A stretch of 64,000 nt of DNA from Pseudomonadales bacterium. GTDB lineage: Bacteria; Pseudomonadota; Gammaproteobacteria; Pseudomonadales; Azotimanducaceae. The DNA lies in NCBI GenBank assembly GCA_036381275.1, contig DASVDC010000128.1:18667-82666 (forward strand). Reading direction: 5' to 3'. Every line of letters begins with the position of its first letter. Position 1 is the first letter of the stretch. The notes beneath the pieces were generated by a model. The model did not search any database, was not told the origin of the DNA, and saw nothing but the letters and a program-made list of their open reading frames with translations. Both the position numbers and the translations under genes were made by a program. Shown here one piece after another: positions 3-27,617 of this stretch.

Positions 3-761
3 CGGCTCGACGGCAAGCATGTGGTCATCACCGGCGCCTCTTCCGGCTTCGGCAGTCATTTCGCCGGTGTGCTGGCCGAAGCGGGCGCGCGGGTCGTGCT
101 CGGCGCGCGGCGGGTCGAGAAGGTGCTCGATCGGGTGGAGGAGCTGAAGGCGGCCGGCTACGAGGCCGCGGGTGCCGCGCTCGACGTGCGCAGCGCCGAC
201 AGCATCGATGCGTTCTTCGATGCCGCCGAGCGCGCGTTCGGCCCGGTCGACGTTCTGGTGAACAACGCCGGCGTGGAGGCCGGTGCGAAGACCTACGTGA
301 TGATCGACGAGGCCGACTGGGACTACGTCCTCGACACCAACCTGAAGGGCGCCTGGCTCGCCGCGAAGAAGTTCACCGAGCGGGTGATCAAGCACGGCCT
401 GCCGGGCGGCAACATCATCAACGTCTCGTCGATCACCGACCGACGCACCATCAAGGGCCAGTTCCCGTACGCCGTGTCCAAGGCGGCGATGACCCGGATG
501 ACCGAGGTGATGGCGCTCGAGGCGGCGAAGCACCGGATCCGGGTCAACGCGCTGGCGCCCGGCTACATCCTGACCGACGTGAGCCGCACCCTGCTCGAGA
601 GCGACCGCGCGCCCGAGTTCATGAAGGGCATCCCGATGCGCCGGTTCGGCGAGTTCGACGACCTCGACGGCCCGCTGCTGCTGCTCGCATCGGACGCGTC
701 GAAGTACATGACCGGCTCGGTGGTGACGGTGGACGGCGGCCACGTCTGTGCATCCCTCTGA
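3..761 (+). CDS. SDR-family short-chain dehydrogenase/reductase (5' end outside window)
   Basis: The frame is open from base 3 (RLDGKHVVITGASSGFG), so the Rossmann TGxxxGxG loop sits at the window edge. NNAG and YAVSKAA (YxxxK) motifs are present. The ORF-track start at 21 is an internal GTG. Confidence 0.85.
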   Translation, partial: RLDGKHVVITGASSGFGSHFAGVLAEAGARVVLGARRVEKVLDRVEELKAAGYEAAGAALDVRSADSIDAFFDAAERAFGPVDVLVNNAGVEAGAKTYVMIDEADWDYVLDTNLKGAWLAAKKFTERVIKHGLPGGNIINVSSITDRRTIKGQFPYAVSKAAMTRMTEVMALEAAKHRIRVNALAPGYILTDVSRTLLESDRAPEFMKGIPMRRFGEFDDLDGPLLLLASDASKYMTGSVVTVDGGHVCASL

Positions 762-776
762 CCAGGAGGAACGGCA

Positions 777-1907
777 ATGAGCGACATACGCCCCTTCCGG
801 ATCGAGATTCCCGACAGCCAGCTCGACGACCTGCGCAGCCGGCTCGCGCTGACGCGCTTCCCGGAGCGCGAGACGCCGTCCGACTGGTCCCAGGGCGTGC
901 CGCTCGACTACATGCGGGAGATCAAGGCGTACTGGGAGCGCGACTACGACTGGCGCCGCGCCGAGGCCGCGATCAACGCGTTCGATCAGTTCGTCACCAC
1001 CATCGACGGGCTCGACGTGCACTTCATCCACGCGCGCGCCGCCGAGCCGGATGCGCTGCCGCTGGTGATGACCCACGGCTGGCCCGGCTCCATCGTCGAG
1101 TTCCTGAAGGTGATCGAGCCGCTGCGCAATCCCGCCGCGCACGGCGGCGACGCAGGCGATGCGTTCCACGTGATCTGCCCCTCCCTGCCCGGCTACGGCT
1201 TCTCCGGCAAGCCCACCGCGCCCGGCTGGGGCGTCGAGAAGATCGCCGATGCCTGGGCCGAGCTGATGGCGCGCCTCGGCTACGGAAGCTACGTCGCGCA
1301 GGGCGGCGACTGGGGCTCCGCGGTGACCACGGCGCTCGGCATCCGTGATCCGCAGCACTGCCGCGCGATCCACCTGAACATGGTGACCGCACGTCCGGAG
1401 CCGCTCGACGACCTCACCGAGACCGAAAAGAAAGCGCTCGCCGGGATGCAGCACTACCGCGACTGGGATTCCGGCTACTCGAAGCAGCAGAGCACCCGGC
1501 CGCAGACGCTCGGCTACGGGCTGGTCGATTCGCCCATCGGCCAGGCCGCGTGGATTCTCGAGAAGTTCTGGGCCTGGACCGACTGCAACGGCCATCCCGA
1601 GAACGCGCTCAGCCGTGACGAGATGCTCGACAACGTGATGCTCTACTGGCTGACCGCGAGCGGCGCCTCGTCCGCGCGCCTGTACTGGGAGAGCTTCGGC
1701 TCGTTCAGCGCCGGCGAGGTCGACGCGCCCACCGGCTGCAGCATCTTCCCGAAGGAGATCTTCGTCTGCTCGCGGCGCTGGGCCGAGAACCGTTACCGCA
1801 ACATCATCTACTGGAACGAGCTGGAGAAAGGCGGACACTTCGCTGCCTTCGAACAGCCGGAGCTGTTCATCGGCGAGCTGAGAAACTGCTTCCGCCTGGT
1901 GCGCTGA
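777..1907 (+). CDS. epoxide hydrolase (alpha/beta hydrolase with microsomal-EH-type N-terminal domain)
   Basis: N-terminus FRIEIPDSQLDDLRSRLALTRFP and an HGWPGS motif are typical of the family, and the length fits. AGGAGG lies 7 nt upstream of the ATG. Confidence 0.85.
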   Translation: MSDIRPFRIEIPDSQLDDLRSRLALTRFPERETPSDWSQGVPLDYMREIKAYWERDYDWRRAEAAINAFDQFVTTIDGLDVHFIHARAAEPDALPLVMTHGWPGSIVEFLKVIEPLRNPAAHGGDAGDAFHVICPSLPGYGFSGKPTAPGWGVEKIADAWAELMARLGYGSYVAQGGDWGSAVTTALGIRDPQHCRAIHLNMVTARPEPLDDLTETEKKALAGMQHYRDWDSGYSKQQSTRPQTLGYGLVDSPIGQAAWILEKFWAWTDCNGHPENALSRDEMLDNVMLYWLTASGASSARLYWESFGSFSAGEVDAPTGCSIFPKEIFVCSRRWAENRYRNIIYWNELEKGGHFAAFEQPELFIGELRNCFRLVR

Positions 1908-3844
1908 TGGCAGAGCCGCTGTGGACACCCGACCCCGCTTGCGCCGGCCGCAGCCGCATGGCGCGTTTCGCGGAGCGCGTCGGCGCGCGCACCGGGCGTG
2001 ACCTGTCGCGTTACGACGACCTGCACCGCTGGTCGGTGGAAGATCCGGCCGCGTTCTGGCAGGCAGTCTGGGAGTTCACCGGCATCATCGCGTCGCGCCC
2101 GCCCGACGCGCCGGTCGTGGACCTGGACCGGTTTCCCGGCGCACGCTGGTTCCCCGGCGCACGGCTCAACTTCGCCGAGAACCTGCTGCGCTGCCGCGAT
2201 ACCCGCCCGGCGCTGATCTCGGTGCTGGAGACCGGGGAGCGCCGCGAGCTCAGCTTCGCCGATCTGTACCGCCAGACCGCGGCGCTCGCCGCGCATCTGC
2301 GCTCGCTCGGCGTCGGGCAGGGCGACCGCGTCGCGGGATGGCTCCCGAACGTGCCCGAGGCCGTGATCGCGATGCTCGCCGCGGCGAGCCTCGGCGCGGT
2401 CTGGTCGTCCTGCTCGCCCGACTTCGGCGTGCCCGGCGCGCTCGACCGCTTCGGTCAGATCGAGCCGAAGGTGCTGTTCGCGGCGGACGGCTACGTCTAC
2501 AACGGCCGGCCGATCGACACCACGTCGAAGATGCAGGAGGTCGCCCGGCAGATACCCTCCATCGCCACGACCGTGTGGGTGTCACTGCTCGACGCGGTGC
2601 CGCCCGGCGCCGTCCGCTTCGACGCGATCACCGCCGGGGAAGATCCGCCGGCGCTCACGTTCGAGCAGCGCGCCTTCGACGATCCGTTGTACGTGATGTA
2701 CTCCTCCGGCACCACCGGAAAGCCGAAGTGCATCGTGCACGGCATCGGCGGGACGCTGATCCAGCACCTGAAGGAGCACCAGCTCCACTGCGACCTCGGC
2801 CCGGACGACACGCTGTTCTTCTTCACGACCTGCGGCTGGATGATGTGGAACTGGCTCGTCAGCGGGCTCGCGAGCGAGGCGACGCTCGTGCTCTACGACG
2901 GCTCGCCGTTCCGTCCGCGGCCCGATGCGCTGATGACCCTGGCCGAGCGCGAAGGAATCACCGTGTTCGGCGCCAGCGCGAAATACCTGTCGGCGCTGGA
3001 GAAGGCCGACCGGAAGCCGATCGAGACCCACGACCTGAAGCGGATGCGCATGCTGCTGTCGACCGGCTCACCGCTCGCTCCGGAGAGCTTCCGCTACGTG
3101 TATCGCTCGATCAAACCCGACGTGCACCTCGCCTCCATCTCCGGCGGCACCGACCTGATCTCCTGCTTCGTGCTCGGCTCGCCGCTGCTGCCGGTGTACG
3201 AAGGCGAGATCCAGTGCGCGGGCCTCGGCATGGCGGTGGACGTGTTCGACGACGACGGGCAGCCGCTGCGCGGCGCGAAGGGGGAGCTCGTCTGCACGCG
3301 GCCGTTCCCGTCTTGTCCGATCGGCTTCTGGAACGACCCCGACGGGCGCCGCTTCCACGAAGCCTACTTCGCCCGCTTTCCCGGCGTCTGGGCCCACGGC
3401 GACTTCGCCGAGATCACGGAGCACGGCGGTTACGTGATCCACGGCCGCAGCGACGCGGTGCTGAACCCCGGCGGCGTGCGGATCGGCACCGCCGAGATCT
3501 ACGCGCAGGTCGAGCAGTTCGAGGAGATCGAGGAAGCGATCTGCGTCGGCCAGCAGTGGGAAGGCGACGTGCGCGTCGTGCTGTTCGTCGTGATGCGGGG
3601 CGGCCACCGGCTCGACGAAACGCTCGCGGCGCGCATCCGCGAGGCGATCAAGACCAACGTCAGCCCGCGGCACGTGCCGGCGAAGATCATCGAGGTGCCG
3701 GAGATCCCGCGCACGCTGTCCGGCAAGATCGTCGAGCTCGCCGTACGCGACGTGATCCACGGCCGCGAGGTCGCCAATACCTCCGCGCTGGCGAACCCGG
3801 GCGCGCTCGAGCACTTCCGCAACCGGCCGGAGCTCGCGAGCTGA
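1907..3844 (+). CDS. acetoacetyl-CoA synthetase (acetoacetate-CoA ligase)
   Basis: N-terminus (RYDDLHRWSVEDPAAFWQAVW) and the AMP-binding motif YSSGTTGKPK match the family. The protein is 645 aa. The ATG overlaps the preceding TGA by 1 nt. Confidence 0.9.
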   Translation: MAEPLWTPDPACAGRSRMARFAERVGARTGRDLSRYDDLHRWSVEDPAAFWQAVWEFTGIIASRPPDAPVVDLDRFPGARWFPGARLNFAENLLRCRDTRPALISVLETGERRELSFADLYRQTAALAAHLRSLGVGQGDRVAGWLPNVPEAVIAMLAAASLGAVWSSCSPDFGVPGALDRFGQIEPKVLFAADGYVYNGRPIDTTSKMQEVARQIPSIATTVWVSLLDAVPPGAVRFDAITAGEDPPALTFEQRAFDDPLYVMYSSGTTGKPKCIVHGIGGTLIQHLKEHQLHCDLGPDDTLFFFTTCGWMMWNWLVSGLASEATLVLYDGSPFRPRPDALMTLAEREGITVFGASAKYLSALEKADRKPIETHDLKRMRMLLSTGSPLAPESFRYVYRSIKPDVHLASISGGTDLISCFVLGSPLLPVYEGEIQCAGLGMAVDVFDDDGQPLRGAKGELVCTRPFPSCPIGFWNDPDGRRFHEAYFARFPGVWAHGDFAEITEHGGYVIHGRSDAVLNPGGVRIGTAEIYAQVEQFEEIEEAICVGQQWEGDVRVVLFVVMRGGHRLDETLAARIREAIKTNVSPRHVPAKIIEVPEIPRTLSGKIVELAVRDVIHGREVANTSALANPGALEHFRNRPELAS

Positions 3845-3906
3845 CGCTCGGTTCACCGCCATCTGGTACCATGGCAGGCCCTCGTGGCCCCCGGGCGGGC
3901 AAACCG

Positions 3907-4227
3907 ATGTCGGAGCTGGGCCGTCAGTTCGTCGAGCTCGCGGAAAGCGTCTCGGAGCTCATCGTGCTGCTGGAGGAATCCGGCGATCCGTTCTGGATCC
4001 CGTACCTGCAGCGGGGCCTCGCGCAGGTGCGCGAGAACCGGCTGTCCGGCGCCACCTTCATCCTCGGCTGCTACGGCGGCGAGGACACCTTCTCCGACCT
4101 GGTCATCGCCCGGACGCTCGAGCAGAGCGACCCCGCTGCCTTCCGCGACCTGAACGCGCGCCTCAACGCATTGCGCAATCAGACCTTCGAGCGCGCCAAC
4201 GCGATCACCTCGCGCCGAGCGTGGTAG
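3907..4227 (+). CDS. hypothetical protein (106 aa)
   Basis: Only the last 106 codons of ORF-track entry 2338..4227 look protein-like (MSELGRQFVELAESVSELIVLLEESGDPFWIPYL...). The part upstream of the ATG at 3907 is an out-of-frame shadow of the CoA-ligase gene. No family recognised. Confidence 0.5.
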   Translation: MSELGRQFVELAESVSELIVLLEESGDPFWIPYLQRGLAQVRENRLSGATFILGCYGGEDTFSDLVIARTLEQSDPAAFRDLNARLNALRNQTFERANAITSRRAW

Positions 4228-4278
4228 GGGTTCATACCCTCCGCTCAATGGATTTGTAACATCCTTCGTGTTAAGTTT

Positions 4279-4632
4279 TTGGACAGCAGGAGGGCGCATA
4301 GCAGTGGGGGCATTCCCGTGTTCAAACGCAGAACGACTGATAAACGGCCGCCGGCCCGGCTTGTAGGCAATTTGTTTCACGGTATCGCCATCGAACCCGG
4401 GGACAAGGCCTGCGAGGCCGTCCGCCGGATTGCCGGCCACCGCTTCCTCAGCGAGGAGGCGCCCCGGCTGCCGCTCGACGAGTGCCAGTGCATGCAGGAC
4501 TGCCGCTGCGTCTACCGCCATTTCCCGGACCGGCGCACCGACGTCCGCCGGGACATGGACATGGGCCTGCCGTACCGGCCGGTGCCCGGCGACAAACGCG
4601 CCGGAGTCGGTCGCCGGATCACGGACGGCTGA
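4279..4632 (+). CDS. hypothetical Cys/Arg-rich small protein
   Basis: ORF with the motif APRLPLDECQCMQDCRCVYRHFPDRRTDVRR. The start is uncertain (TTG 4279 or GTG 4318). It lies in a lower-GC intergenic-looking stretch. The antisense ORF 3853..4521 looks less protein-like. Confidence 0.4.
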   Translation: MDSRRAHSSGGIPVFKRRTTDKRPPARLVGNLFHGIAIEPGDKACEAVRRIAGHRFLSEEAPRLPLDECQCMQDCRCVYRHFPDRRTDVRRDMDMGLPYRPVPGDKRAGVGRRITDG

Positions 4633-4636
4633 TCCC

Positions 4637-5101
4637 CTAGCCGACCGGCTCCTCCGATGCCGGCACGCGTTTCCGCCGCATCGGCGGATCCTTGCGGTAC
4701 CGACGCGTGAAGCGGTGGGTCAGGTGCCACGGCTGGGCTTCGCTGGTCCACAAGTGCAGCTTCGGCTTGAACCGGGACGGCTCGTCGAGCGCCCCTACCT
4801 TGACCGTACAGACCCCGGGCGAGCCGTCACTGAACGAATACAGATGCGTGCCGCAGTTGGCGCAGAACGCGCGCGTCACCAGATGCCCGGCATCCGACAG
4901 CGTGGAGAACTCGGCGGGATGGCCGCGGGTGACCCGGAACTGCGCCTTGACGGCGCCGACGACGTAGGCCGGCCCGCCGCCGGACGTGTACTGGCAGGCA
5001 CGGCAGTGGCAAGCACCTCGGAACACCAGCGGCTCGTAGAAGCCGAACCGGATCTGGCCACAGGCACAACCGCCGGTGACCTTGGTTCGCTCATCCGCCA
5101 T
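4637..5101 (-). CDS. GFA (glutathione-dependent formaldehyde-activating / CENP-V-like) family protein
   Basis: Cys-rich zinc motifs GGCACGQIRF, CHCRACQ and FCANCGTHLY are typical of the GFA domain. Confidence 0.85.
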   Translation of the reverse strand: MADERTKVTGGCACGQIRFGFYEPLVFRGACHCRACQYTSGGGPAYVVGAVKAQFRVTRGHPAEFSTLSDAGHLVTRAFCANCGTHLYSFSDGSPGVCTVKVGALDEPSRFKPKLHLWTSEAQPWHLTHRFTRRYRKDPPMRRKRVPASEEPVG

Positions 5102-5114
5102 CGGACATCATCCC

Positions 5115-6338
5115 TCACCCGCCCCCGCGGGAAGCTGCAGGGGCGCATTCTGCCATCCCCGGCCGCCGCGGCGAAGGCAGCGTAGCCAGCAGCACCCCGG
5201 AGGCGAGGTTGCAGCACGCCACCACCACGAGCGCCCAGCGGTAGCCGCCGGTGAGGTCGCGGTAGTACGAGACGAGCAGCGGTGCTGCCGCGCCGAGCAG
5301 CAGCGCGAACGGCAGCCCGGCACTGCGCACGGCGCCGAGGTAGCGGCGGCCGAAGAACGACCCCCAGATCACCTCCTGCAGCGGAATCATGCCGCCCCAG
5401 CCGATGCCGAGCAGCACGTAGGCGGCGTAGATGAGCACGAGCGCATCGAGCTCCACCGCCCCGACGATCGCCAGCAGCGACAAGCCCGTCAACGCAGCCC
5501 CCGCCGCCGCCAGCGGGCGCGGCTCGAGGCGGTCGATGAAGAAGCCCCAGATGGGCTTGGACAGCATCGCCGGAATGGAGGCGACGGTGATCGCCCAGGC
5601 AGCCTCGCTGCGGCTGAAGCCGCGGTCGCTCAGGTACGGCACCGTGTGCAGCAGCATCACGACGATGTTGATCGTGAACAGCCCGAACGCGAGCACCAGC
5701 AGGTAGAAGCTCGGCGAGCGCAGCGCCTCGGCGCGGGTCAGCGAACGTTCGTAGTCGAGCTGGGCACGCACCGCGAGTCCGCGGGCGACCTGCTCGGCGC
5801 TTCGGCCGTCGGGATGCCAGCCGTGATCCTCCGGCGTCCGTCGCATCACCAGCGCCGCCGGCAGCAGACAGACCAGCGTAACCACCCCGAGCACGACCCA
5901 GGCGCCGCGCCAGCCGAGCTCGTCCGCGAGCCAGGTCGCCGTCGGCGTCAGCACCACTCCGGCAAACGACACACCCATCGCGGCCCACGCCACCGCCTGA
6001 CCGCGCTTCTCGACGAACCATTTCGCCATCGTCACGTTGACGACCAGGTTGCCGACCAGTGCGCAGCCCACCGTGAGCAGCGCACCGTTCAGGATCAGCC
6101 AGCCGGTCAGGGTCTGCACCTGACTGTGCGCCGCCAGCACCAGCGCGAGCAGCAGCGTGCCGACGACCATCAGCGGCCGGGCGCCGAAGCGGTCGACCCA
6201 GGTGCCGATGAAGAAGCCGGCGAACCCCATCACGAACTGCCCGAGGGAGCGCGACAGCGTGTATTCCGACCGGGTCCAGCCGAGCTCCTCGATCATCGGC
6301 ACCATGAACGGGCCGAGCACGTAGCTGAACATGCCCAT
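5115..6338 (-). CDS. MFS transporter (N-terminus probably longer, see findings)
   Basis: Multi-TM hydrophobic protein with an MFS-like loop motif (GTWVDRFGARP). The first canonical start gives 407 aa, but the open frame upstream encodes a TM1-like segment (YYGWWLVGAAFVAQFFA). Confidence 0.8.
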   Translation of the reverse strand: MGMFSYVLGPFMVPMIEELGWTRSEYTLSRSLGQFVMGFAGFFIGTWVDRFGARPLMVVGTLLLALVLAAHSQVQTLTGWLILNGALLTVGCALVGNLVVNVTMAKWFVEKRGQAVAWAAMGVSFAGVVLTPTATWLADELGWRGAWVVLGVVTLVCLLPAALVMRRTPEDHGWHPDGRSAEQVARGLAVRAQLDYERSLTRAEALRSPSFYLLVLAFGLFTINIVVMLLHTVPYLSDRGFSRSEAAWAITVASIPAMLSKPIWGFFIDRLEPRPLAAAGAALTGLSLLAIVGAVELDALVLIYAAYVLLGIGWGGMIPLQEVIWGSFFGRRYLGAVRSAGLPFALLLGAAAPLLVSYYRDLTGGYRWALVVVACCNLASGVLLATLPSPRRPGMAECAPAASRGGG

Positions 6339-10218: not shown

Positions 10219-10689
10219 TTGCTCGATGGCGCTTCGCGTTCTCGGTCCGAGAACACCATCCACAGGCTCGCCGGCGCGTTGCTCGTGCCCATACCTCTGA
10301 TGATCACGGCCGGGATCTCGAACGTGTTCGGGCAGGATCCATCGCGCAGAGTTCTCTCATTCATCTTATCGAGCCTGCTCGTGCTGGCGGCCGCTCTGGC
10401 GTTTTTCATGCGCGTTTCGATCCCCCCAGGCAGAAGCAGCGGACGACAAGTTATTTTCCTTGTTTACCACGCAGCGCCTGCGTTCGTCCACCGGACGAGT
10501 ACACAAAGGGGCAAAGCCGAAGCTATTGGAGACGAGAAAAGGTCGAGCCGATGCTCACCGCCGACCGCGCAGCGCGAAGCGTTCCGGACCTTCATGCGCC
10601 GGGAATTCGTCGAGCGGCTCCGGTGGTCGGAGAGTAATCGGCTCCCGCGACGGAGCGCTCACCGAGAAGTCAGCGCGGCCACCACCTGA
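10219..10689 (+). pseudogene. possible decayed paralogue remnant / doubtful ORF
   Basis: Lower-GC stretch. Its 3' part (REAFRTFMRREFVERLRWSE) duplicates an internal segment of the upstream gene (RDAFQTFMRREFDELLRWSQ). There is no convincing start or RBS, and it overlaps the 3' end of the convergent gene. Confidence 0.3.
10567..10636 (+). repeat. 70-nt diverged direct copy of 9741..9810
   Basis: Hand alignment gives 60/70 identical bases with no gaps to the coding segment 9741..9810 of the upstream PG-binding gene. Confidence 0.75.
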
Positions 10690-11183
10690 TCGACGACGGC
10701 CTCGGCCTTCGCCCGCATCTCGTCGTCCGTCGCGTCCTGGATCGGATGCGCGACGAACACCCGCCGCGCGTCGGTCATGCCGAGCGCCTTCGCCTGAGTC
10801 TCCGCCGCATCCACGAACTCGCTGGAGGCGATGCTCACCGCCGGCCGGCCGTGGATCTCGAAGTACACCGTGTCATGCAAACTGCACGTGGTGCACGATC
10901 CTCAGTCGGCGAGTGCCTCCACCACGAAATCCGCCTCCTCGACGATGCGCCGGCGCAGGTCGTCCGGTGCCGGCTTCGTGAAGGTGGGCTTCGCGTAGCG
11001 TTTGATCGTCACCTCCGGGGCGCGCTCGGCCAGCAGCTCCGCGAGCCGGTCGAGCAGCACGTTGCCGCGCGGCTTCGAGATGTCGAGCAGCGCCACGACG
11101 CCGCCGAGGCGCTGCGGCCGCGGCGTGATCGAGCGGGTCACCGGAACGCGCTCGTCCGTCGGGTCGAGAATCGTTGTCGTCAT
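10659..11183 (-). CDS. candidate selenoprotein with U-G-S-C-x-x-C motif (UGSC-type), in-frame TGA at 10902..10904
   Basis: ORFs 10902..11183 and 10659..10880 share one frame and are separated only by TGA plus 7 sense codons. Readthrough gives ...EALAD-U-GSCTTCSLHDTVYFEIHG... (174 aa). The downstream piece lacks an ATG/GTG start or an SD. A hairpin lies just 3' of the UGA. The ATG overlaps the upstream stop (ATGA). Confidence 0.6.
10853..10901 (-). promoter_or_regulatory. SECIS-like stem-loop immediately 3' of the in-frame UGA
   Basis: At mRNA +4..+52 from the UGA: GGAUC/GAUCC (5 bp), GUGCACC/GGUGUAC (7 bp, one G-U), CGUGC/GCAUG (5 bp, one G-U), and apical loop AGUUU at +22..+26. Folded by hand only. 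Confidence 0.45.
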
Positions 11184-12763
11184 CGAGCCTCCCTGATCTT
11201 CACCGAGACCGGCTGCGAGCCGATCTCACCCGTTGCCCAGCCGTGGAACGCGCCGGAGAACTTGCCCGCTTCGGCGCCGGCCACGACGATGTGAATGTCT
11301 TCTTCCCGGCGGAACTTGGGCAGCTCGCGGCCGAGCTGCTCCGCCGTCATCCGCTCCGCCGCCTCCTTCGGCACACCCGACCCGGACGTTTCGTCCTGCA
11401 CCAGCTCGCGCAGCGGCCGGCGCGTCACCTGCTGGATCCGCGCGCGGAGCTCCGCTTTGCCCCACCCGTCGCGGTGCAACGTGTCGACGTGCTCCGGGCA
11501 GACGACCAGCAGCGCGTCGGTGGTGTAGTGCAGCTTCGGCGCGAACGCCGACTCGAGACAGAGCCCGAACGTGCCGGCGAGCTGCGCGGCGCTGCGCGAC
11601 TGCTGATCGACGAGCTGCACCGGGCCGCTGGTCATCGCGAACGCGGTGACCACGGAATCGTCCGGCGCGAACCCCCGCTCGACGTGCAGCGGCGTCCAGG
11701 GGCTGCGCTCTTCCCACTCCGCGAAGCACATCGTGAACTTCATCGGATTGCCGAGCGTGGACCGTTCGGTGCCGCCCGGGCGCGCCCCGCCGACGTTGCG
11801 CAGCACCAGGCGCAGCGCGCGGCCGATCGTCGCGTTGGCGCGATTGCCCTGACCGAGCGCGCCGAGCTTCATGTTCATGCCGATGCGGTGCCGGATCGGG
11901 CCGTTCACGACCAGCACCGGGCTCGCGCCCATCGTGGTGGCCATCACCCCGTGCGCGTTGAACGTGTCCGTGCAGACCGCCTCGAGCGCCGCGAGCACCA
12001 CCGGCAGGTACTCCGGGCGGCAGCCGGCCATCACCGCGTTGATCGCGACCTTCTCGACCGTGACCTCCGCCATGTTCGGCGGCACCACGGCGATCACTTC
12101 CTGCGGGTCGCGGTCCGTGCCCGAGAGCATCCGCAGCACCCGTTCCGGCGTCGGCGGCACCACCGGCAGCCCGTCCGTCAGACCCTGATCGAACAGGAAC
12201 TCGTGCTCGTCGTCCTGCGCGCCGATCTCGATGCGCCGCGCCCGGAGCGGGCTGTTGGCGGCCGCCGCACGCAGCCGCTCGGCCACCAGCGGATCGGCCG
12301 ACGCGGAGCCGCAGCCGGGCTGCCACGCGGGCAGCGCCGCCCAGTGACACTCCGGTTCGGGAACTTGGAGCTCACTCGCCAGATCGGCGGCGAAAGCCTG
12401 CCATTCCTCCCGCACGAACCCGACCAGCGTGCGCCGACGCGCACCCTGCGCGTCCGTCACGACCAGGGTCGGCACGATCTCGACGTCCCAGCGGAACGAG
12501 ACCGTCAGATCGGCGTCGTCCAGCACCGCGCCGCCGCCCATCTTCTGCTCGAGCAACGCGTTGTCGGCGCCGCTCTGGCCCACCACCAGAAACGGCAGCG
12601 CCGCGCCGAATGCGCGCTGCCACGAACCGAGCAACGGCAGCACCGTCTCGCAGGTCGGGCAGTCCTTCTTCACGAAGCAGACGACGGTGGGCTCGCGGCC
12701 GGTGAAGGTGTGCTCCTCCCCGTGGCCGTCGCGGAGCGTGAACGCCGGCGCTGCGTCAGGCAT
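11180..12763 (-). CDS. thioredoxin-fold (redoxin-like, CPTC) protein fused to a large uncharacterised domain
   Basis: The N-terminus AFTLRDGHGEEHTFTGREPTVVCFVKKDCPTCETVLPLL looks TlpA/AhpC-TSA-like. The remaining ~390 aa (GLTDGLPVVPPT, AINAVMAGCRPEYLP, GNRANATIGRALRL) is not assignable by me. It overlaps both neighbours (8 nt and 4 nt). Confidence 0.8.
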   Translation of the reverse strand: MPDAAPAFTLRDGHGEEHTFTGREPTVVCFVKKDCPTCETVLPLLGSWQRAFGAALPFLVVGQSGADNALLEQKMGGGAVLDDADLTVSFRWDVEIVPTLVVTDAQGARRRTLVGFVREEWQAFAADLASELQVPEPECHWAALPAWQPGCGSASADPLVAERLRAAAANSPLRARRIEIGAQDDEHEFLFDQGLTDGLPVVPPTPERVLRMLSGTDRDPQEVIAVVPPNMAEVTVEKVAINAVMAGCRPEYLPVVLAALEAVCTDTFNAHGVMATTMGASPVLVVNGPIRHRIGMNMKLGALGQGNRANATIGRALRLVLRNVGGARPGGTERSTLGNPMKFTMCFAEWEERSPWTPLHVERGFAPDDSVVTAFAMTSGPVQLVDQQSRSAAQLAGTFGLCLESAFAPKLHYTTDALLVVCPEHVDTLHRDGWGKAELRARIQQVTRRPLRELVQDETSGSGVPKEAAERMTAEQLGRELPKFRREEDIHIVVAGAEAGKFSGAFHGWATGEIGSQPVSVKIREAR

Positions 12764-13541
12764 GCATCGCCTCCAGCGCCTTCAACATGCGCTTCAACGC
12801 GAAATGCCGGTAGCTCTCCTCGATCAGCGCCCCCACCTCCGGCCAGATCACGCCGTCCTCGGCGTCCAGCGAGATCCAGCCGTTGTGGCCGATGTAGCTC
12901 GGGATCCGGTAGCGCTCGTCCATCGTGAGCTGCGTCTGCCGCTCGGGGCCCACCCAGAACTGCAGCTCGAGCCGCCGGCGATACCGGTGCGCGGTGCAGA
13001 AGGTCTTCTTGCCGGCACGCCAGCAGGGGTTGCCGAACTGGACGGCCTCGGTGACCTCGGGCAGCCTCAGGCAGCGCTCCCGCACGCCGGCGATGATTTC
13101 CTGCGCGCGTGGCGCCGACAGCGGGTCGAATTCTTCGGGATCCACGGTCGCCTGCGGCGGCTCGATATCCTTCGGTGGACCCATGCGGGCCACCAGCTCC
13201 GGCGGCGCGGAGAACGCATACGCCTCCCGCACCAGCGCGCCGATGCGCCGCCAATCGAGCCCACGGTCGAGGTGCACGCCGAGCCAGCCCCGCGGGCCCA
13301 CGTACGGCGGCACGAAGAAGTGCTCCGGCTCGGCCTCCACGTACAGTTGCTGGGCGCCCGGCGGCATGTTGAGCAACAGCGCGATGCGCCCGTCGCCGTG
13401 GTGGTTCACCGTGTACGTCGCGAAGGTGCGCTTGCCGACGCGGAAGTCCGGCATGCCGTGCGACGGCACTTCGCGGGCCTCCGGCAGCCCGAGGCACAGC
13501 TCGCGAACGGCATCGCTGATGGTCTTCCTGCGCTTCGCCAC
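12756..13541 (-). CDS. tandem MmcQ/YjbR-family domain protein
   Basis: Two repeats of the YjbR-like pattern (LPEAREVPSHGMPDFRVGKRTFA...PPYVGPRGWLGVHL and LPEVTEAVQFGNPCWRAGKKTFC...PSYIGHNGWISLD). 261 aa. Confidence 0.8.
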   Translation of the reverse strand: MAKRRKTISDAVRELCLGLPEAREVPSHGMPDFRVGKRTFATYTVNHHGDGRIALLLNMPPGAQQLYVEAEPEHFFVPPYVGPRGWLGVHLDRGLDWRRIGALVREAYAFSAPPELVARMGPPKDIEPPQATVDPEEFDPLSAPRAQEIIAGVRERCLRLPEVTEAVQFGNPCWRAGKKTFCTAHRYRRRLELQFWVGPERQTQLTMDERYRIPSYIGHNGWISLDAEDGVIWPEVGALIEESYRHFALKRMLKALEAMHA

Positions 13542-13641: not shown

Positions 13642-14112
13642 TCATGCCGGATGGCCGTAGTGTCCGTGGCGGGCGCCGTGCATCAGCCGGCGGAAATCGT
13701 CGCCGCTGATCGCGAGCAGCGTCGCCCGGTCACCGCTTTCGGCATAGATCCGATCCCGCTCCAGCAGACTCTCGTCCACCAGCACGTCGAGCCCGTACGC
13801 CTGCCCGAACGGCGGCACCGCGCCGCGGTCGCAGTCGGCGAAGATGTGCTCGACTTCGTCTTCCGTCGCGAGCCCGTAGGTATCACCGAGCTCTCTGCGC
13901 AACTCGCCGAGGTGAATCTGCTCGGTCGCCGGCAGCACCACCATCGTGCAGTGGTCGCTGTTCTCGATCACCACCCCTTTCGCGAGGTTTGCGCCCGGAA
14001 CGTGGGCCGCCTGCGCTTTCCCGGAGCTGGTTCCCGCCGGCGCGTGGGGCACGAGCTGGTAGGCGATGCCGTTCTGTTCGAGCAGCGCGCGCAGCTTGGT
14101 GGCAATGGGCAT
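13642..14112 (-). CDS. YbaK/EbsC-type aminoacyl-tRNA editing (deacylase) domain protein
   Basis: Sequence pattern KGVVIENSDHCTMVVLPA...HLGELRRELG...GAVPPFG is typical of the YbaK/ProX family. 156 aa. Confidence 0.75.
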   Translation of the reverse strand: MPIATKLRALLEQNGIAYQLVPHAPAGTSSGKAQAAHVPGANLAKGVVIENSDHCTMVVLPATEQIHLGELRRELGDTYGLATEDEVEHIFADCDRGAVPPFGQAYGLDVLVDESLLERDRIYAESGDRATLLAISGDDFRRLMHGARHGHYGHPA

Positions 14113-14181: not shown

Positions 14182-14415
14182 TCATTGCCGGTCGACGAAA
14201 CCGCTCTTGCCCGCCGCTTCCGCGCAATGCGCACAGCAGTAGATGTCGCTGCCGGCCTGCAGCCCGTGGCCGATCACGCGGGTGCTGCAGGTGGCGCAGC
14301 GCGGCGCGAGCCTCTCGATCGCGCATTCGAAGCAATCGAACACGTGGGGCCCTTCGTCGCCCAGGGTGATGGTGAGCGCCCGGTCGTAGTCGTTTCCGCA
14401 GACCTCACATTGCAT
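14182..14415 (-). CDS. small Cys-rich putative metal-binding protein
   Basis: 77 aa containing CEVCGN, FDCFECAI, PRCATC and YCCAHCA motifs (10 Cys). I recall this as a recurrent small-protein family but without a name. Confidence 0.6.
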   Translation of the reverse strand: MQCEVCGNDYDRALTITLGDEGPHVFDCFECAIERLAPRCATCSTRVIGHGLQAGSDIYCCAHCAEAAGKSGFVDRQ

Positions 14416-16523: not shown

Positions 16524-17693
16524 ATGAGCGAGCTCGCCGAATTCCGCAAAGAGGTGGCCGCCTGGCTGAAGGACAACTGCCCCGAGGGGGCGCGTGGCCC
16601 CGGCCAGATCGCCACCGGCAGCAGCAAGATCAAGCTGGAGCCGGACGTCCAGCGCTGGCTCGAGCGCTGCGTCGAGCGGGGCTTCACCGCCCCGACCTGG
16701 CCGAAGCAGTACGGCGGCGGCGGGCTCTCCCCGGCCGAGGCGCAGGTCCTCTACGAGGAGATGGCGGCGATCCGCGCGCGCATGCCGCTGATGGGCATGG
16801 GCCTGTCGATGATCGGCCCCACGCTGCTCGAGTTCGGCACCGAGGATCAGAAAGCGCGGCACCTGCCGCGCATCGTCCGCGGCGAAGTGCAGTGGTGTCA
16901 GGGCTATTCGGAGCCGAGCGCGGGCTCGGACCTCGCCTCGTTGCGTACCCGGGCCGAAGACCGGGGCGACCACTTCGTGATCAACGGGCAGAAGATCTGG
17001 ACCTCCGGCGCGGCCACCGCCGACTGGATGTTCGCGCTGGTGCGCACCGATCCGGACGCGCCGAAGCACGAAGGCATCAGCTTCGTGCTCCTCACGATGG
17101 ACCAGCCGGGCGTCACCGTGCGGCCGATCCGGCTGATCTCGGGCAGCTCGCCGTTCTGCGAGACGTTCTTCGACAACGCGATCGCGAAGAAGGAGGACCT
17201 GGTCGGCGAGCTGAACAAGGGCTGGACGGTCGGCAAACGGCTGCTCCAGTTCGAGCGCTCCGGCATCGGCGGGCTATCGGGCGGTGCGCGCCGCCAGCCG
17301 AGCGAAGGGCTCGCCCGGCTCGCGAAGGAGTACGTCGGCGAAGAGAACGGCCGCATCGCCGATCCCGCCGTGCGCGCGAGCATCATCGACTTCAACATGC
17401 GTTCGCACGCGTTCCGGCTGACCGCCGCCCGCGTCAACGAGGAGAACCGTTCGGGCACGCCCGGCGAGGCCACCTCGATCTTCAAGCTGGTCGGCGCCCG
17501 CCTGCAGCAGAACGGTGCCGATCTGCGGCGTCAGCTGATGGGCACCCGCGGTCTCGGGGTGGACGGGTTCTCGCCGCGCGAGCTCGAGGCGACCACGGAA
17601 TGGCTCGCCACGAAGGCCACCACCATCTACGGCGGCAGCGACGAAATCCAGGCGAACATCATCGCGAAGCGCGTCCTCGGGCTCCCGGACTGA
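16524..17693 (+). CDS. acyl-CoA dehydrogenase family protein
   Basis: ACAD patterns (GYSEPSAGSDLASLRTRA, FVINGQKIWTSGA, and the C-terminal IYGGSDEIQANIIAKRVLGLP). Confidence 0.9.
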   Translation: MSELAEFRKEVAAWLKDNCPEGARGPGQIATGSSKIKLEPDVQRWLERCVERGFTAPTWPKQYGGGGLSPAEAQVLYEEMAAIRARMPLMGMGLSMIGPTLLEFGTEDQKARHLPRIVRGEVQWCQGYSEPSAGSDLASLRTRAEDRGDHFVINGQKIWTSGAATADWMFALVRTDPDAPKHEGISFVLLTMDQPGVTVRPIRLISGSSPFCETFFDNAIAKKEDLVGELNKGWTVGKRLLQFERSGIGGLSGGARRQPSEGLARLAKEYVGEENGRIADPAVRASIIDFNMRSHAFRLTAARVNEENRSGTPGEATSIFKLVGARLQQNGADLRRQLMGTRGLGVDGFSPRELEATTEWLATKATTIYGGSDEIQANIIAKRVLGLPD

Positions 17694-27236: not shown

Positions 27237-27617
27237 ATGAACTACGACGACGCCCGCGCCTACCTCGCCGGCAAGCCCGAAGCGGTGGAAGACTTTCCGT
27301 TCGGGCCCGACGTGCGCGTGTTCCGCATCCGCGGGCGCCTCTTTGCACTGCTGATGACGCGGCACGGCCAGGATCAGGTGAACCTCAAGTGCGATCCGGA
27401 AGAGGCCCTCGCGCTGCGCGACATCTTCGACGCGGTGCGGCCCGGTTACCACATGAACAAGGCGCACTGGAACACGGTGCTGCTCGACGGCTCGATTCCG
27501 CGCGGCGAAATCGAGCGGATGATGGATCGCTCGTACGCGCTGGTGGTGCGCTCGCTGCGCAAGGCGGATCGGATCGCGCTCGAGGTGCGGCACGGGCGGG
27601 ACGCCCTCTACCGTTGA
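27237..27617 (+). CDS. MmcQ/YjbR-family DNA-binding-like protein
   Basis: Pattern AYLAGKPEAVEDFPFGPDVRVFRIRGRLFALL...GYHMNKAHWNTV is typical of YjbR. 126 aa. Confidence 0.8.
   Translation: MNYDDARAYLAGKPEAVEDFPFGPDVRVFRIRGRLFALLMTRHGQDQVNLKCDPEEALALRDIFDAVRPGYHMNKAHWNTVLLDGSIPRGEIERMMDRSYALVVRSLRKADRIALEVRHGRDALYR

What the first reader, a model, noticed from the sequence alone, without database searches (positions are those of the whole stretch)
10659..13541. Translationally coupled operon of a tandem-YjbR protein, a thioredoxin-fold fusion with a large unassigned domain, and the UGSC selenoprotein: candidate uncharacterised thiol/selenol redox system
Three minus-strand genes (13541->12756, 12763->11180, 11183->10659) overlap by 8 nt and 4 nt (ATGA), so they are almost certainly co-translated.

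- The 527-aa middle protein starts with a redoxin/TlpA-like thioredoxin fold carrying CPTC (VVCFVKKDCPTCETVLPLL). It continues with ~390 aa that I cannot place in any characterised family. Conserved-looking blocks are GLTDGLPVVPPTPERV, AINAVMAGCRPEYLPVVL, GNRANATIGRALRLVLRN and KFTMCFAEWEE.
- The first protein is a duplication of the MmcQ/YjbR fold, which has no established function. A third, single YjbR gene sits at 27237..27617.
- The last gene is the Sec candidate.

Inference: a CxxC thioredoxin fold next to a U-x-x-C-x-x-C partner suggests an electron or selenium relay acting on an unknown substrate bound by the large domain. I know of no experimental description of this combination.
Basis: partly seen in the sequence, partly recalled or inferred. 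Interest (0 to 1): 0.75.

Follow-up and report, generated by a model that had tools for sequence, protein, structure and literature searches.

The report
Thioredoxin-fused partner of UGSC selenoprotein
A small selenium-containing protein of unknown function (UGSC) almost always sits next to, or is fused with, one large uncharacterised protein domain. Here that domain carries its own thioredoxin module, which points to a widespread, unstudied two-part redox enzyme.

Summary
Three overlapping minus-strand genes encode a tandem-YjbR protein, a 527-aa thioredoxin-fold fusion, and a UGSC-family selenoprotein with an in-frame TGA followed by a SECIS-like hairpin.

The conserved unit has two genes, not three.
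- UGSC lies directly downstream of the fusion gene in 80 of 80 related genomes, and 77 of 77 covered loci carry TGA.
- Starting from UGSC instead, the large domain lies directly upstream in 60 of 69 informative metagenome loci.
- The two are fused into one ORF, in either order, in 26 of the 150 best family representatives.
- The YjbR gene accompanies the pair only in the five closest relatives.

The about 350-aa domain has no Pfam, NCBIfam or PDB sequence match. A confident model (pTM 0.86) has no significant PDB fold match.

Where the thioredoxin domain is not fused, trxA/trxB genes or a ferredoxin:thioredoxin-reductase domain can take its place.

In nine alphaproteobacterial loci the pair sits inside the selA-selB-selC(-selD) cluster. 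Cys-type versions occur in haloarchaea and an actinobacterium.

Best reading: a thioredoxin-driven two-subunit Sec/Cys reductase, organised like glycine or proline reductase, with an unknown substrate. The UGSC family is known; the obligate partner and the thioredoxin link are, in the literature I could search, essentially undescribed.

The parts
11180..12763 (-). Gene for the 527-aa fusion protein: Trx-fold domain, Cys-containing linker, and large uncharacterised domain. It is the first gene of the conserved two-gene module.
   Evidence: ORF. More than 8000 homologues share enough words to be scored, and the best 120 are full-length at 63-89% identity. Relatives were found in 554 genome stretches.
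12359..12763 (-). N-terminal thioredoxin-fold domain (residues 1-135), ResA/TlpA-like, with no signal peptide
   Evidence: Foldseek matches ResA 1su9_B at E 1.3e-8 and target TM 0.79. A PDB profile search hits ResA over residues 4-119 at E 6e-7. V97-P98, the position of the Trx cis-proline, is invariant. The N-terminus MPDAAPAFTLRDGHGEE has no hydrophobic stretch.
12650..12661 (-). CPTC redox motif (C35-P-T-C38) of the thioredoxin domain
   Evidence: Read. C35, P36, T37 and C38 are invariant in 57 homologues.
12239..12358 (-). Linker (residues 136-175) with the invariant P-G-C151-G-S, specific to the Trx-fused subfamily
   Evidence: W141, P145, G150, C151, G152, S155, D157 and P158 are invariant. 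The linker HMM matches representatives that carry the Trx domain. pLDDT is 70-93 up to about residue 170, then low for 171-199.
11183..12238 (-). Large uncharacterised domain (residues 176-527), the conserved partner of UGSC. Motifs: TDGLPVVPPT, AINAVMAGC(248)RPEY, GNRANATIGRALRL, EWEE, PEH(425).
   Evidence: No Pfam or NCBIfam match. No PDB sequence match at E<=10. The model has pLDDT 84.7 and pTM 0.86. The best PDB fold match has E 4.8e-3 and TM 0.26-0.30. There are 5522 representatives of 50%-identity clusters at E<=1e-3. Conserved residues are listed.
12020..12022 (-). Codon of Cys248 (MAGC), the one cysteine conserved across the whole domain family
   Evidence: Invariant in alignment A3. 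At least 90% conserved in the 96-member diverse alignment A6.
10659..11183 (-). UGSC-family selenoprotein gene (174 aa including Sec94), overlapping the upstream gene by ATGA
   Evidence: Translation. PF24696 at E 2e-48 and NF041046 above its cutoff. It lies immediately downstream of the fusion gene in 80/80 loci.
10902..10904 (-). In-frame TGA read as selenocysteine (U94) in the motif U-G-S-C-T-T-C
   Evidence: TGA is at this codon in 77/77 genome loci and 80/80 metagenome loci. Cys occupies the position in non-Sec homologues, e.g. CGSCSSC and CGSCTSW.
10863..10896 (-). SECIS-like hairpin starting 6 nt after the UGA: a 7-bp lower helix, a 6-bp upper helix and a GUU apical loop
   Evidence: Window fold of -20.7 kcal/mol, z-score -1.9. 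The consensus structure has 3 pairs with compensatory changes. 95.6% of cells are paired against 91.4% in shuffles (0/500 reach it). The covariation score is 0.175 against 0.101 (0/500), and slid controls reach at most 55%. The upper helix is nearly invariant even at synonymous sites.
12756..13541 (-). Tandem-YjbR (MmcQ/YjbR) gene, overlapping the fusion gene by 8 nt. It is a lineage-specific upstream neighbour, not part of the conserved module.
   Evidence: Pfam YjbR with two stretches, E 2e-29. It is found beside the pair only in L001-L004, and about 2 kb away in L005, of 80 loci.

Best explanation
**What it is.** The conserved unit is a two-protein cytoplasmic redox enzyme. The large uncharacterised domain (residues 176-527) is the body of the enzyme and most likely holds the substrate. 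Its family-wide conserved residues are C248, R308, R315, E349 and H425. The small UGSC protein is the redox subunit. Its Sec94, at the start of U-G-S-C-T-T-C, acts as the nucleophile or reductant and ends the cycle as a selenenyl-sulfide with C97 (possibly involving C100).

**Electron supply.** In this window the electron donor is built in. The N-terminal thioredoxin domain (CPTC), perhaps through linker C151, re-reduces UGSC. The thioredoxin domain would itself be recharged by thioredoxin reductase and NADPH. The three-part logic matches glycine reductase and D-proline reductase: a substrate-binding subunit, a small UxxC selenoprotein subunit, and thiol-based reducing power.

**What is unknown.** The substrate is unknown. 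Variable catabolic neighbours hint at a small organic acid or similar metabolite. These neighbours include LysR regulators, CoA-transferases, acyl-CoA dehydrogenases, SDRs, TauD and transporters.

**Shown versus inferred.**
- Shown: gene pairing, gene fusions, Sec decoding signals, the Trx fold, and substitution of the fused Trx by separate Trx-system genes or an FTR-type domain.
- Inferred: physical complex formation, direction of electron flow, the roles of individual residues, and the nature of the substrate.

The YjbR gene is a local neighbour only.
For: **Pairing**
- UGSC lies directly downstream of the fusion gene in 80/80 genome loci. Spacing runs from -6 to +121 nt, with one at 191.
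- The stand-alone domain in Methylomirabilota is also followed by Sec-UGSC.
- In UGSC-centred metagenome loci the domain is directly upstream in 60 of 69 informative cases.

**Fusions**
- 26 of the 150 best representatives carry UGSC and the domain in one ORF, 13 in each order. 27 of the 96 members of alignment A6 hit PF24696.

**Electron supply**
- The Trx fold and invariant CPTC are established.
- 39 of 150 representatives carry the Trx domain and/or the linker.
- One (P0152) carries a ferredoxin:thioredoxin-reductase catalytic domain instead.
- Arthrobacter has the order trxB-trxA-domain-UGSC, Roseovarius has domain-UGSC-trxB, and Variovorax has trxB two genes upstream.
- A TrxB-like gene lies within the fetched 6-kb flanks in 6 of 80 gammaproteobacterial loci.

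**Redox motif**
- [U/C]-G-S-C is kept in both Sec and Cys forms.
- Profile-profile alignment with GOS PrdB/GrdB-like selenoproteins places Sec on Sec. Scores are hhalign 52% probability at E 1.4e-4 and 23.5% at E 8.6e-4.

**Real selenoprotein**
- Conserved TGA plus a SECIS-like hairpin with covariation.
- selA, selB and tRNA-Sec lie beside the pair in 9 of 9 alphaproteobacterial loci.

**Enzyme-like domain**
- Invariant polar residues are present, and the model is confident at pTM 0.86.
Against: - No complex was modelled and no coordinates were available, so contact between U94, C248 and CPTC is not shown.
- The domain has no detectable relative of known function, so 'substrate-binding catalytic subunit' is an inference.
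- The similarity of UGSC to GrdB/PrdB is weak. No UGSC member hits PF07355 by hmmscan, even at E<=10.
- No member of the domain family hits the PrdA/GrdE family.
- Seven of 69 UGSC loci lack an adjacent domain gene, and at least one domain gene (Haladaptatus) lacks an adjacent UGSC.
- Neighbouring genes are too variable to name a pathway.
- The conserved C248, H425, E349 and D197 could equally be metal ligands.
Confidence: 0.55

Rival explanations
1. The pair is a thiol/selenol-based protective or repair system, such as a peroxidase or a reductase of oxidised proteins or disulfides. It would not be a metabolic reductase of a small molecule. UGSC would be the peroxidatic or repair selenoprotein, the Trx domain its recycler, and the large domain a docking or specificity module.
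For: - Most prokaryotic selenoproteins of this size are thiol oxidoreductase-like (PMC2398784, PMC13188914).
- The family is very abundant in aerobic surface-water bacteria.
- In most gammaproteobacterial loci the pair stands alone, with a divergent upstream gene and no fixed pathway neighbours.
- A fused Trx domain is typical of repair enzymes such as Trx-MsrA/B fusions (background knowledge).
Against: - A 350-aa partner with many invariant Arg, His, Glu and Asn residues is more than a docking module needs.
- The plasmid-borne copies I inspected sit in inducible-looking catabolic islands with LysR regulators, transporters and CoA-transferases.
- No peroxiredoxin or Msr signature is found outside the Trx domain.
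Confidence: 0.2
2. The module works in selenium metabolism itself, as a selenium relay. It would capture, reduce or deliver selenium to SelD, with the Sec/Cys motif carrying Se. This is one of the two roles (electron or selenium relay) that the first reader suggested.
For: - In 9 of 9 alphaproteobacterial loci the pair lies beside tRNA-Sec, with selA and selB within 6 kb. In 6 of the 9, selD is also within 6 kb.
- In L077 and L080 the pair sits directly between tRNA-Sec and an Ndh-SelD fusion gene.
- In Paracoccus ferrooxidans a cysteine desulfurase gene, a TusA gene and selB are nearby.
Against: - No sel genes lie within 6 kb in 71 gammaproteobacterial loci, in the window, or in the two Methylomirabilota-type contigs I inspected (L081, L082).
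- Cys-type pairs occur on replicons of haloarchaea and on an Arthrobacter plasmid. That haloarchaea lack the Sec trait is background knowledge.
- Selenoprotein genes commonly travel with the Sec machinery simply because they are its clients (background knowledge).
Confidence: 0.08
3. This is a three-component system in which the tandem-YjbR protein is a functional partner of the Trx-fusion and UGSC proteins.
For: - The YjbR gene overlaps the fusion gene by 8 nt in the window.
- It is adjacent, on the same strand, in the four closest relatives L001-L004.
Against: - It is absent from 75 of 80 related loci, and in L005 it lies 2 kb away.
- The upstream neighbour is on the opposite strand in 53 of 75 loci.
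- YjbR was not seen beside the pair in any Methylomirabilota, alphaproteobacterial, actinobacterial or archaeal context I inspected.
Confidence: 0.05
4. There is no selenoprotein. The TGA is a true stop, 10902..11183 and 10659..10880 are two small unrelated ORFs, and the adjacency to the fusion gene is accidental.
For: Gene callers split the gene at the TGA in public assemblies, for example into 93 aa and 73 aa in L082 and into 95 aa and 80 aa in Paracoccus ferrooxidans.
Against: - A single Pfam/NCBIfam model spans both halves.
- TGA is conserved in frame in 157 of 157 loci.
- Cys replaces it in other lineages.
- A SECIS-like hairpin with covariation follows it.
- Fusion proteins exist.
Confidence: 0.01

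Closest known systems
UGSC-containing protein family (PF24696 / NF041046), including the 'UGSC/Unknown_1 fusion' noted by Zhang and Gladyshev 2008 (PMC2398784)
   Same: - The third gene is a clear member, by HMM scores, the UGSC motif and a Sec-encoding TGA.
[quoted passage not shown]
- A fusion to an unnamed conserved domain was recorded in that paper.
   Different: - The literature I could search gives no function, no partner analysis and no thioredoxin link.
- Here the partner is defined as a domain of about 350 aa and shown to be near-obligate. It is also shown to be Trx-fused or Trx-associated.
- Identity of 'Unknown_1' with this domain is inferred, because the figure is held only as an image.
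Glycine/sarcosine/betaine reductase (GrdE/GrdB with GrdA) and D-proline reductase (PrdA/PrdB)
   Same: - The architecture matches: a large substrate-binding subunit plus a small selenoprotein subunit, with Sec in a UxxC(xxC) motif just after a beta-strand.
- Grd takes its electrons from thioredoxin and thioredoxin reductase, whose genes are encoded with grd genes (background knowledge). Prd is regenerated by PrdC (PMC11229817).
- A weak profile-profile alignment of UGSC with marine PrdB/GrdB-like proteins puts Sec on Sec.
   Different: - UGSC does not reach PF07355 by HMM.
- The large domain shows no similarity to PrdA/GrdE, and there is no evidence of a pyruvoyl group or self-cleavage.
- There is no GrdA-like second selenoprotein.
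- The hosts are aerobic Proteobacteria, Methylomirabilota, an actinobacterium and haloarchaea, not Stickland fermenters.
- Cys forms are common.
ResA/TlpA/CcmG-type thioredoxin-fold thiol-disulfide oxidoreductases (the usual database name for the 527-aa protein)
   Same: - Residues 1-135 adopt this fold (TM 0.79 to ResA).
- They carry an invariant CxxC and the conserved proline.
   Different: - ResA and TlpA are membrane-anchored extracytoplasmic reductants for cytochrome maturation. This protein has no signal or anchor sequence.
- Three quarters of this protein is an unrelated domain.
- The Pfam score is below the gathering threshold (20.3 against 26).
- The annotation 'TlpA family protein disulfide reductase' describes only a quarter of the protein.
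Reductases with a fused dedicated thioredoxin domain, e.g. Neisseria PilB/MsrAB with an N-terminal Trx domain (background knowledge)
   Same: An N-terminal Trx-fold CxxC domain is fused to a catalytic body whose active-site (seleno)cysteine must be re-reduced after each turnover.
   Different: - The catalytic body here is split between a new domain and a separate small selenoprotein.
- There is no sequence relationship to Msr enzymes.

Membership tests
UGSC family (PF24696 / NCBIfam NF041046) | HMM score above the curated cutoff across the whole protein | tested here: met
   PF24696 scores 165.1 bits (cutoff 25) over residues 4-172. NF041046 scores 163.7 bits (cutoff 125).
UGSC family (PF24696 / NCBIfam NF041046) | [U/C]-G-S-C motif at the conserved position | tested here: met
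   The window has U94-G-S-C97-T-T-C100. The same motif occurs in 76 of 77 genome loci, with UGSCTSC in the other one.
Bacterial selenoprotein gene (Sec decoding) | In-frame UGA conserved among homologues, with Cys in some homologues at the same site | tested here: met
   TGA is found in 77/77 and 80/80 loci. Cys occupies the site in the Arthrobacter, Roseovarius, Natrinema and Variovorax homologues.
Bacterial selenoprotein gene (Sec decoding) | SECIS stem-loop immediately downstream of the UGA | tested here: met
   The hairpin lies at 10863..10896. 95.6% of cells are paired, 3 pairs show compensatory changes, and 0 of 500 shuffles reach the observed covariation. SelB binding cannot be tested with these tools.
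Bacterial selenoprotein gene (Sec decoding) | Sec machinery (selA, selB, selC, selD) present in the same genome | not testable with these tools
   None is in the 64-kb window, and the rest of the genome is not available. In alphaproteobacterial relatives the machinery is adjacent to the pair.
Thioredoxin-fold TlpA/ResA-like oxidoreductase (N-terminal domain only) | Thioredoxin fold with a CxxC motif at the helix N-terminus and a conserved cis-proline | tested here: met
   Foldseek matches ResA at E 1.3e-8 and TM 0.79. CPTC and V97-P98 are invariant.
Thioredoxin-fold TlpA/ResA-like oxidoreductase (N-terminal domain only) | Pfam family score above the gathering threshold | tested here: not met
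   AhpC-TSA scores 20.3 bits against a cutoff of 26. MauD scores 21 bits against 188.6.
Thioredoxin-fold TlpA/ResA-like oxidoreductase (N-terminal domain only) | Membrane anchor or signal peptide, indicating extracytoplasmic location | tested here: not met
   The N-terminus MPDAAPAFTLRDGHGEEHTF has no hydrophobic segment. This was judged by eye; no predictor was run.
GrdB/PrdB selenoprotein B family (PF07355 GRDB) | HMM match to PF07355 | tested here: not met
   No hit at E<=10 for the window UGSC protein or for 8 diverse UGSC members.
GrdB/PrdB selenoprotein B family (PF07355 GRDB) | Remote homology of the Sec-containing beta-U-helix-beta core | tested here: inconclusive
   hhalign against GOS PrdB/GrdB-like sequences gives 52% probability at E 1.4e-4. 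With deeper alignments it gives 23.5% at E 8.6e-4. Sec aligns with Sec in both.
GrdB/PrdB selenoprotein B family (PF07355 GRDB) | Partner is a pyruvoyl proprotein of the PrdA/GrdE family | tested here: not met
   None of the 96 diverse members of the partner domain hits a PrdA/GrdE-type family at E<=0.1. Self-cleavage or a pyruvoyl group cannot be tested here.
MmcQ/YjbR family (PF04237), first gene | Two YjbR domains in one chain | tested here: met
   PF04237 at E 2.1e-29 with two stretches, the best at residues 158-245. Self-similarity of the two halves shows in tblastn.
Known anti-phage defence systems (PADLOC) | Any of the three proteins matches a defence-system model | tested here: not met
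   No PADLOC hit at E<=0.01.

The most novel reading that the evidence does not exclude
The UGSC protein and its large partner are a previously unrecognised class of thioredoxin-dependent selenocysteine (or cysteine) reductase. It would be distantly derived from the GrdB/PrdB selenoprotein lineage but paired with a substrate-binding subunit of a new fold. It would carry out a reductive bond cleavage on a still unknown metabolite in aerobic marine and soil bacteria and in haloarchaea. That would explain why UGSC is among the commonest selenoproteins in the ocean and why it travels with the Sec machinery.
Probability: 0.3. Interest if true: 0.8.

Novelty: new variant of a known kind. Interest (0 to 1): 0.62.

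Why it matters
[quoted passage not shown] It is also one of the selenoprotein genes (with FDH) reported to carry the recoded UAG Sec codon in Geodermatophilaceae (PMC5330540).

**What this adds.** UGSC almost always works with one defined partner domain that has no Pfam family. That partner is wired to the thioredoxin system, whether fused, encoded alongside, or replaced by an FTR-type domain. An orphan selenoprotein thereby becomes a testable enzyme system. Cultured hosts are available (Sulfitobacter, Roseovarius, Paracoccus, Arthrobacter, Natrinema), and natural Cys forms exist that are easy to express.

**Annotation.** The current database name for the 527-aa protein, 'TlpA family protein disulfide reductase', covers only a quarter of it. 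The split ORFs of UGSC are a recurrent annotation error.

**If the analogy holds.** If the parallel with glycine and proline reductase is correct, Sec-dependent reductive chemistry would extend from anaerobic fermenters to aerobic bacterioplankton.

Tried and rejected
- **Fold search of the full-length model.** It returned only thioredoxin-fold hits. I re-predicted the C-terminal domain alone and searched again. Nothing was significant. The best hits were class I fumarate hydratase, cyanuric acid hydrolase/barbiturase and PrpD, at TM <=0.30. I treat these as noise, or at most a hint of small alpha/beta subdomains.
- **Family libraries for the large domain.** Pfam, NCBIfam and PADLOC found nothing. 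This included scanning 96 diverse members one by one at E<=0.1. Only fused accessory domains appeared.
- **PDB sequence searches.** Profile searches with the domain and with UGSC found nothing meaningful.
- **UGSC as a GRDB (PF07355) member.** hmmscan was negative and hhalign was weak. I kept this as an analogy, not as family membership.
- **'Unknown_1' of the 2008 paper.** The supplementary figure panel is stored as an image, so the sequence could not be compared.
- **First metagenome scan.** An over-diverse UGSC alignment failed because it had no conserved stretch. I repeated the scan with a narrower alignment.
- **Complex model and residue distances.** The proximity of U94, C248, C151 and CPTC therefore could not be examined.
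- **Search for a common pathway in the neighbourhoods.** Neighbours vary by lineage. They include an acyl-CoA dehydrogenase, TauD, MFS, SDR, DUF2461, DUF3047, DUF6282, CoA-transferases and phosphosulfolactate synthase. No single pathway emerges.
- **Sigma-70 promoter and terminator scan.** It was uninformative in this 69% G+C region.

Full report
**1.

- On the minus strand there are three ORFs: 13541..12756 (261 aa), 12763..11180 (527 aa) and 11183..10659.
- The overlaps are ATGCCTGA (8 nt) and ATGA (4 nt).
- The third ORF has an in-frame TGA at codon 94. Read through, it gives ...EALAD-U-GSCTTCSLHD....
- Pfam finds two YjbR stretches in the first protein (E 2e-29).
- The middle protein gets only a sub-threshold AhpC-TSA match, at its N-terminus.
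- The third protein gets a full-length UGSC match: PF24696 at E 2e-48, and NF041046 at 164 bits against a cutoff of 125.
- The separate YjbR gene at 27237..27617 is also real.

**2. UGSC is one selenoprotein gene**

- In 80 genome loci that encode a relative of the 527-aa protein, every locus has a UGSC gene. All 77 loci that cover the site have TGA at the same codon, followed by GSCTTCS in 76 and GSCTSCS in 1.
- A UGSC-centred scan of metagenome contigs gave TGA in 80 of 80.
- Homologues from Arthrobacter, Roseovarius, Natrinema and Variovorax have Cys at that position, for example CGSCSSC and CGSCTSW.
- A hairpin begins 6 nt after the UGA, at 10863..10896.
  - Its upper helix and GUU loop are almost invariant at the nucleotide level, even at synonymous sites.
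  - Its lower helix shows compensatory changes at three pairs.
  - 95.6% of cells are paired, against 91.4% in shuffles (0 of 500 reach it). Slid controls reach at most 55%.
- This is what a bacterial SECIS looks like.
- The window holds no tRNA-Sec gene and no selB relative, and selA and selD were not searched for there. The rest of the genome is not available.

**3. The conserved unit is two genes, not three**

- UGSC lies immediately downstream of the fusion gene, on the same strand, in 80 of 80 loci.
- The intergenic spacing runs from an overlap of a few nt to 121 nt, with one case of 191 nt.
- The tandem-YjbR gene is adjacent only in the four closest relatives (L001-L004). In L005 it is 2 kb away, and it is absent from the other 75 loci.
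- In 53 of 75 loci the nearest upstream gene is on the opposite strand.
- YjbR is therefore a recent local neighbour. Its 8-nt overlap in this window does not indicate a shared function.

**4. The large domain is an independent, widespread unit**

- A full HMMER scan with residues 135-527 found 5522 representatives of 50%-identity clusters at E<=1e-3, and 3859 at E<=1e-10.
- Architectures among the best 150 representatives:

| Architecture | Count |
|---|---|
| Domain alone (about 340-370 aa) | 74 |
| N-terminal Trx domain and/or linker | 39 |
| Fused to UGSC in the same ORF (13 in each order) | 26 |
| Split or tandem domain matches (several true tandems of about 710 aa) | about 11 |

- Many of the fusions are truncated exactly at the Sec codon by gene callers.
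- The stand-alone form from Methylomirabilota/Rokubacteria (46% identical) is also followed directly by a Sec-type UGSC gene.
- In the UGSC-centred metagenome loci the domain gene is directly upstream in 60 of 69 informative cases. Two more are displaced or fragmentary, and seven have none in the available flank.
- Rosetta-stone fusions plus synteny across phyla make a physical and functional partnership very likely.
- The 'UGSC/Unknown_1 fusion' mentioned in 2008 (PMC2398784) is probably this domain. The alignment is held only as an image.

**5. What the domain is**

- It has no Pfam, NCBIfam or PADLOC match. This holds even when 96 diverse members are scanned singly at E<=0.1.
- It has no PDB sequence match at E<=10.
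- AlphaFold2 gives a confident alpha/beta model (pLDDT 84.7, pTM 0.86).
- Foldseek against the PDB finds nothing at E<=1e-3. The best match is class I fumarate hydratase at E 4.8e-3, probability 0.54 and TM 0.26-0.30.
- Residues conserved across the whole family include the TDGxPxxPPT motif, C248 in MAGC, R308, N310, R315, E349, W356 and H425.
- This pattern resembles an enzyme active site or a metal site, not a scaffold.

**6. The link to thioredoxin**

- Residues 1-135 of the window protein are a ResA-like thioredoxin fold. Foldseek gives E 1.3e-8 and TM 0.79, and the PDB profile search gives E 6e-7.
- CPTC and the cis-proline position are invariant.
- There is no signal peptide, so unlike ResA or TlpA the protein is cytoplasmic.
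- A linker with the invariant PGC151GS follows the Trx domain.
- Where the Trx domain is missing, the thioredoxin system often appears as separate genes:
  - trxB-trxA-domain-UGSC in Arthrobacter, with trxA overlapping the domain gene by 4 nt;
  - domain-UGSC-trxB in Roseovarius;
  - trxB two genes upstream in Variovorax.
- One representative (P0152) has a ferredoxin:thioredoxin-reductase catalytic domain (CPC...CPC...CHC) in the place of Trx.
- A TrxB-like gene lies within the fetched flanks in 6 of 80 gammaproteobacterial loci.
- The Arthrobacter UGSC carries a C-terminal NifU-like CxxC domain.
- These interchangeable electron-input modules indicate that the pair needs dithiol reducing power.

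**7. The link to the Sec trait**

- All nine alphaproteobacterial loci with enough upstream DNA have a tRNA-Sec gene close to the fusion gene. In eight it is within about 250 nt, and in L068 it is about 2 kb upstream. The nine are Sulfitobacter, Phenylobacterium, Hyphomonadaceae and unnamed MAGs.
- All nine have selA and selB within 6 kb, and six also have selD within 6 kb. The selD in L077 is an Ndh-SelD fusion by Pfam, and relatives covering both parts occur in L073, L074 and L080.
- The order and orientation of these genes differ between loci.
- Paracoccus ferrooxidans has selB 3.3 kb away.
- No such linkage exists in the 71 gammaproteobacterial loci or in the window.
- Cys-type pairs occur on haloarchaeal replicons and on an Arthrobacter plasmid. 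I therefore read the linkage as 'main client of the Sec machinery', not as a role in selenium metabolism.

**8. Mechanism proposed**

- This is a two-subunit reductase. The large domain binds the substrate, and UGSC supplies the Sec/Cys nucleophile from [U/C]GSC.
- The resulting selenenyl-sulfide is re-reduced by the fused Trx domain, or by free Trx and TrxB.
- The closest working analogy is glycine reductase and D-proline reductase. Each has a large substrate-binding subunit and a small UxxC selenoprotein subunit. For Grd, thioredoxin-system genes sit in the operon (background knowledge). For Prd chemistry, see PMC11229817.
- A profile-profile comparison of UGSC with marine PrdB/GrdB-like selenoproteins (Dataset S1 of PMC2398784) aligns Sec with Sec, together with the flanking strand-helix-strand.
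- That comparison reaches only 52% probability at E 1.4e-4, and 23.5% at E 8.6e-4 with deeper alignments.
- hmmscan does not connect UGSC to PF07355, and the partner domain shows no PrdA/GrdE signal.
- So the system may work like Grd/Prd, but I do not file it as a member of that family.
- The substrate is unknown. Neighbours are lineage-specific and include LysR regulators, TRAP/TTT/MFS transporters, CaiB-type CoA-transferases, acyl-CoA dehydrogenase, SDR and TauD. In haloarchaea DUF6282 sits next to the pair, and phosphosulfolactate synthase turns up in two unrelated hosts. Together these hint at catabolism of a small organic acid or sulfonate, no more.

**9. Novelty and verdict**

- UGSC is a known, uncharacterised selenoprotein family.
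- This window holds an ordinary member of a very large family, so the locus itself is not exceptional.
- In the literature I could search, the following are not described beyond a one-line mention of a fusion in 2008:
  - the near-obligate partner domain, which has no family assignment and no fold relative in the PDB;
  - its modular coupling to thioredoxin-type electron donors;
  - its embedding in the sel gene cluster of Alphaproteobacteria.
- I rate it a new variant of a known kind (Sec-dependent, thioredoxin-linked reductases), with interest 0.62.

Noticed in passing
L077 2488-11522; also L044, L067, L068, L071, L073, L074, L078, L080: In nine alphaproteobacterial loci the Trx-fusion/UGSC pair sits inside the selenium-utilisation cluster. 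L077 reads selA - selB - tRNA-Sec - fusion gene - UGSC - Ndh-SelD fusion - rhodanese protein (SelU-like?). Gene order and orientation differ between loci, but the linkage persists.
   Followed up: yes
P0152 (470 aa; protein representative, no locus): A ferredoxin:thioredoxin-reductase catalytic-chain domain (PF02943, CPC..CPC..CHC) is fused N-terminally to the large domain, in the position where the thioredoxin domain sits in the window protein.
   Followed up: partly
P0138, P0154, P0156, P0164, P0239 (about 710 aa): These proteins consist of two tandem copies of the large domain. Whether UGSC genes accompany them was not checked.
   Followed up: no
L164 3638-6812 (Arthrobacter sp. ERGS1:01 plasmid): A compact trxB-trxA-domain-UGSC operon in an actinobacterium. 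Its Cys-type UGSC (CGSCSSC) has an extra C-terminal NifU-like CxxC domain. A phosphosulfolactate synthase gene lies just upstream, and one is also near the pair in Natrinema zhouii (L170 847-1314).
   Followed up: partly
L163 4463-7009, L170 3315-5848, L169 1-650: In haloarchaeal replicons a DUF6282 gene directly follows the UGSC-domain pair (Natrinema, two records). One also lies about 3.3 kb upstream of a domain gene that has no UGSC neighbour (Haladaptatus). This is a possible third component in archaea.
   Followed up: no
L105, L108, L137, L141, L150, L151, L154: Seven soil-metagenome UGSC (TGA) genes have no large-domain gene in the available flank. In L137 and L151 an ORF resembling the DUF3047 gene that precedes the domain gene in L081/L082 lies upstream of UGSC. 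The resemblance was judged by eye from the sequence, with no Pfam run.
   Followed up: partly
window 13642-14112 (-) and 14182-14415 (-): Upstream of the YjbR gene, on the same strand, are two further genes. One is a YbaK-type aminoacyl-tRNA editing-domain gene (PF04073). The other is a 77-aa cysteine-rich ORF (CxxC...CxxC...CxxC...CCxxC) with no Pfam match. Whether they belong to the same transcript is unknown.
   Followed up: partly
P0160 (619 aa): A domain-UGSC fusion with long low-complexity Ser/Ala-rich insertions, ending exactly at the Sec position. It may be a eukaryotic (algal) version; UGSC is listed among algal selenoproteins in PMC7539508.
   Followed up: no
window 21-6338 and 16524-17693; L001-L080 flanks: Several window neighbours recur near the pair in related Pseudomonadales loci. 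These are an SDR, an epoxide-hydrolase-like gene, an MFS transporter and an acyl-CoA dehydrogenase-like gene. A TauD-family dioxygenase recurs in 23 loci. This looks like lineage synteny rather than a defined pathway.
   Followed up: partly
L082 6065-6589; L167 3378-3947: Public gene calls split UGSC into two small 'hypothetical proteins' at the Sec codon. The 527-aa protein is commonly named 'TlpA family protein disulfide reductase'. Both are recurrent annotation problems.
   Followed up: yes
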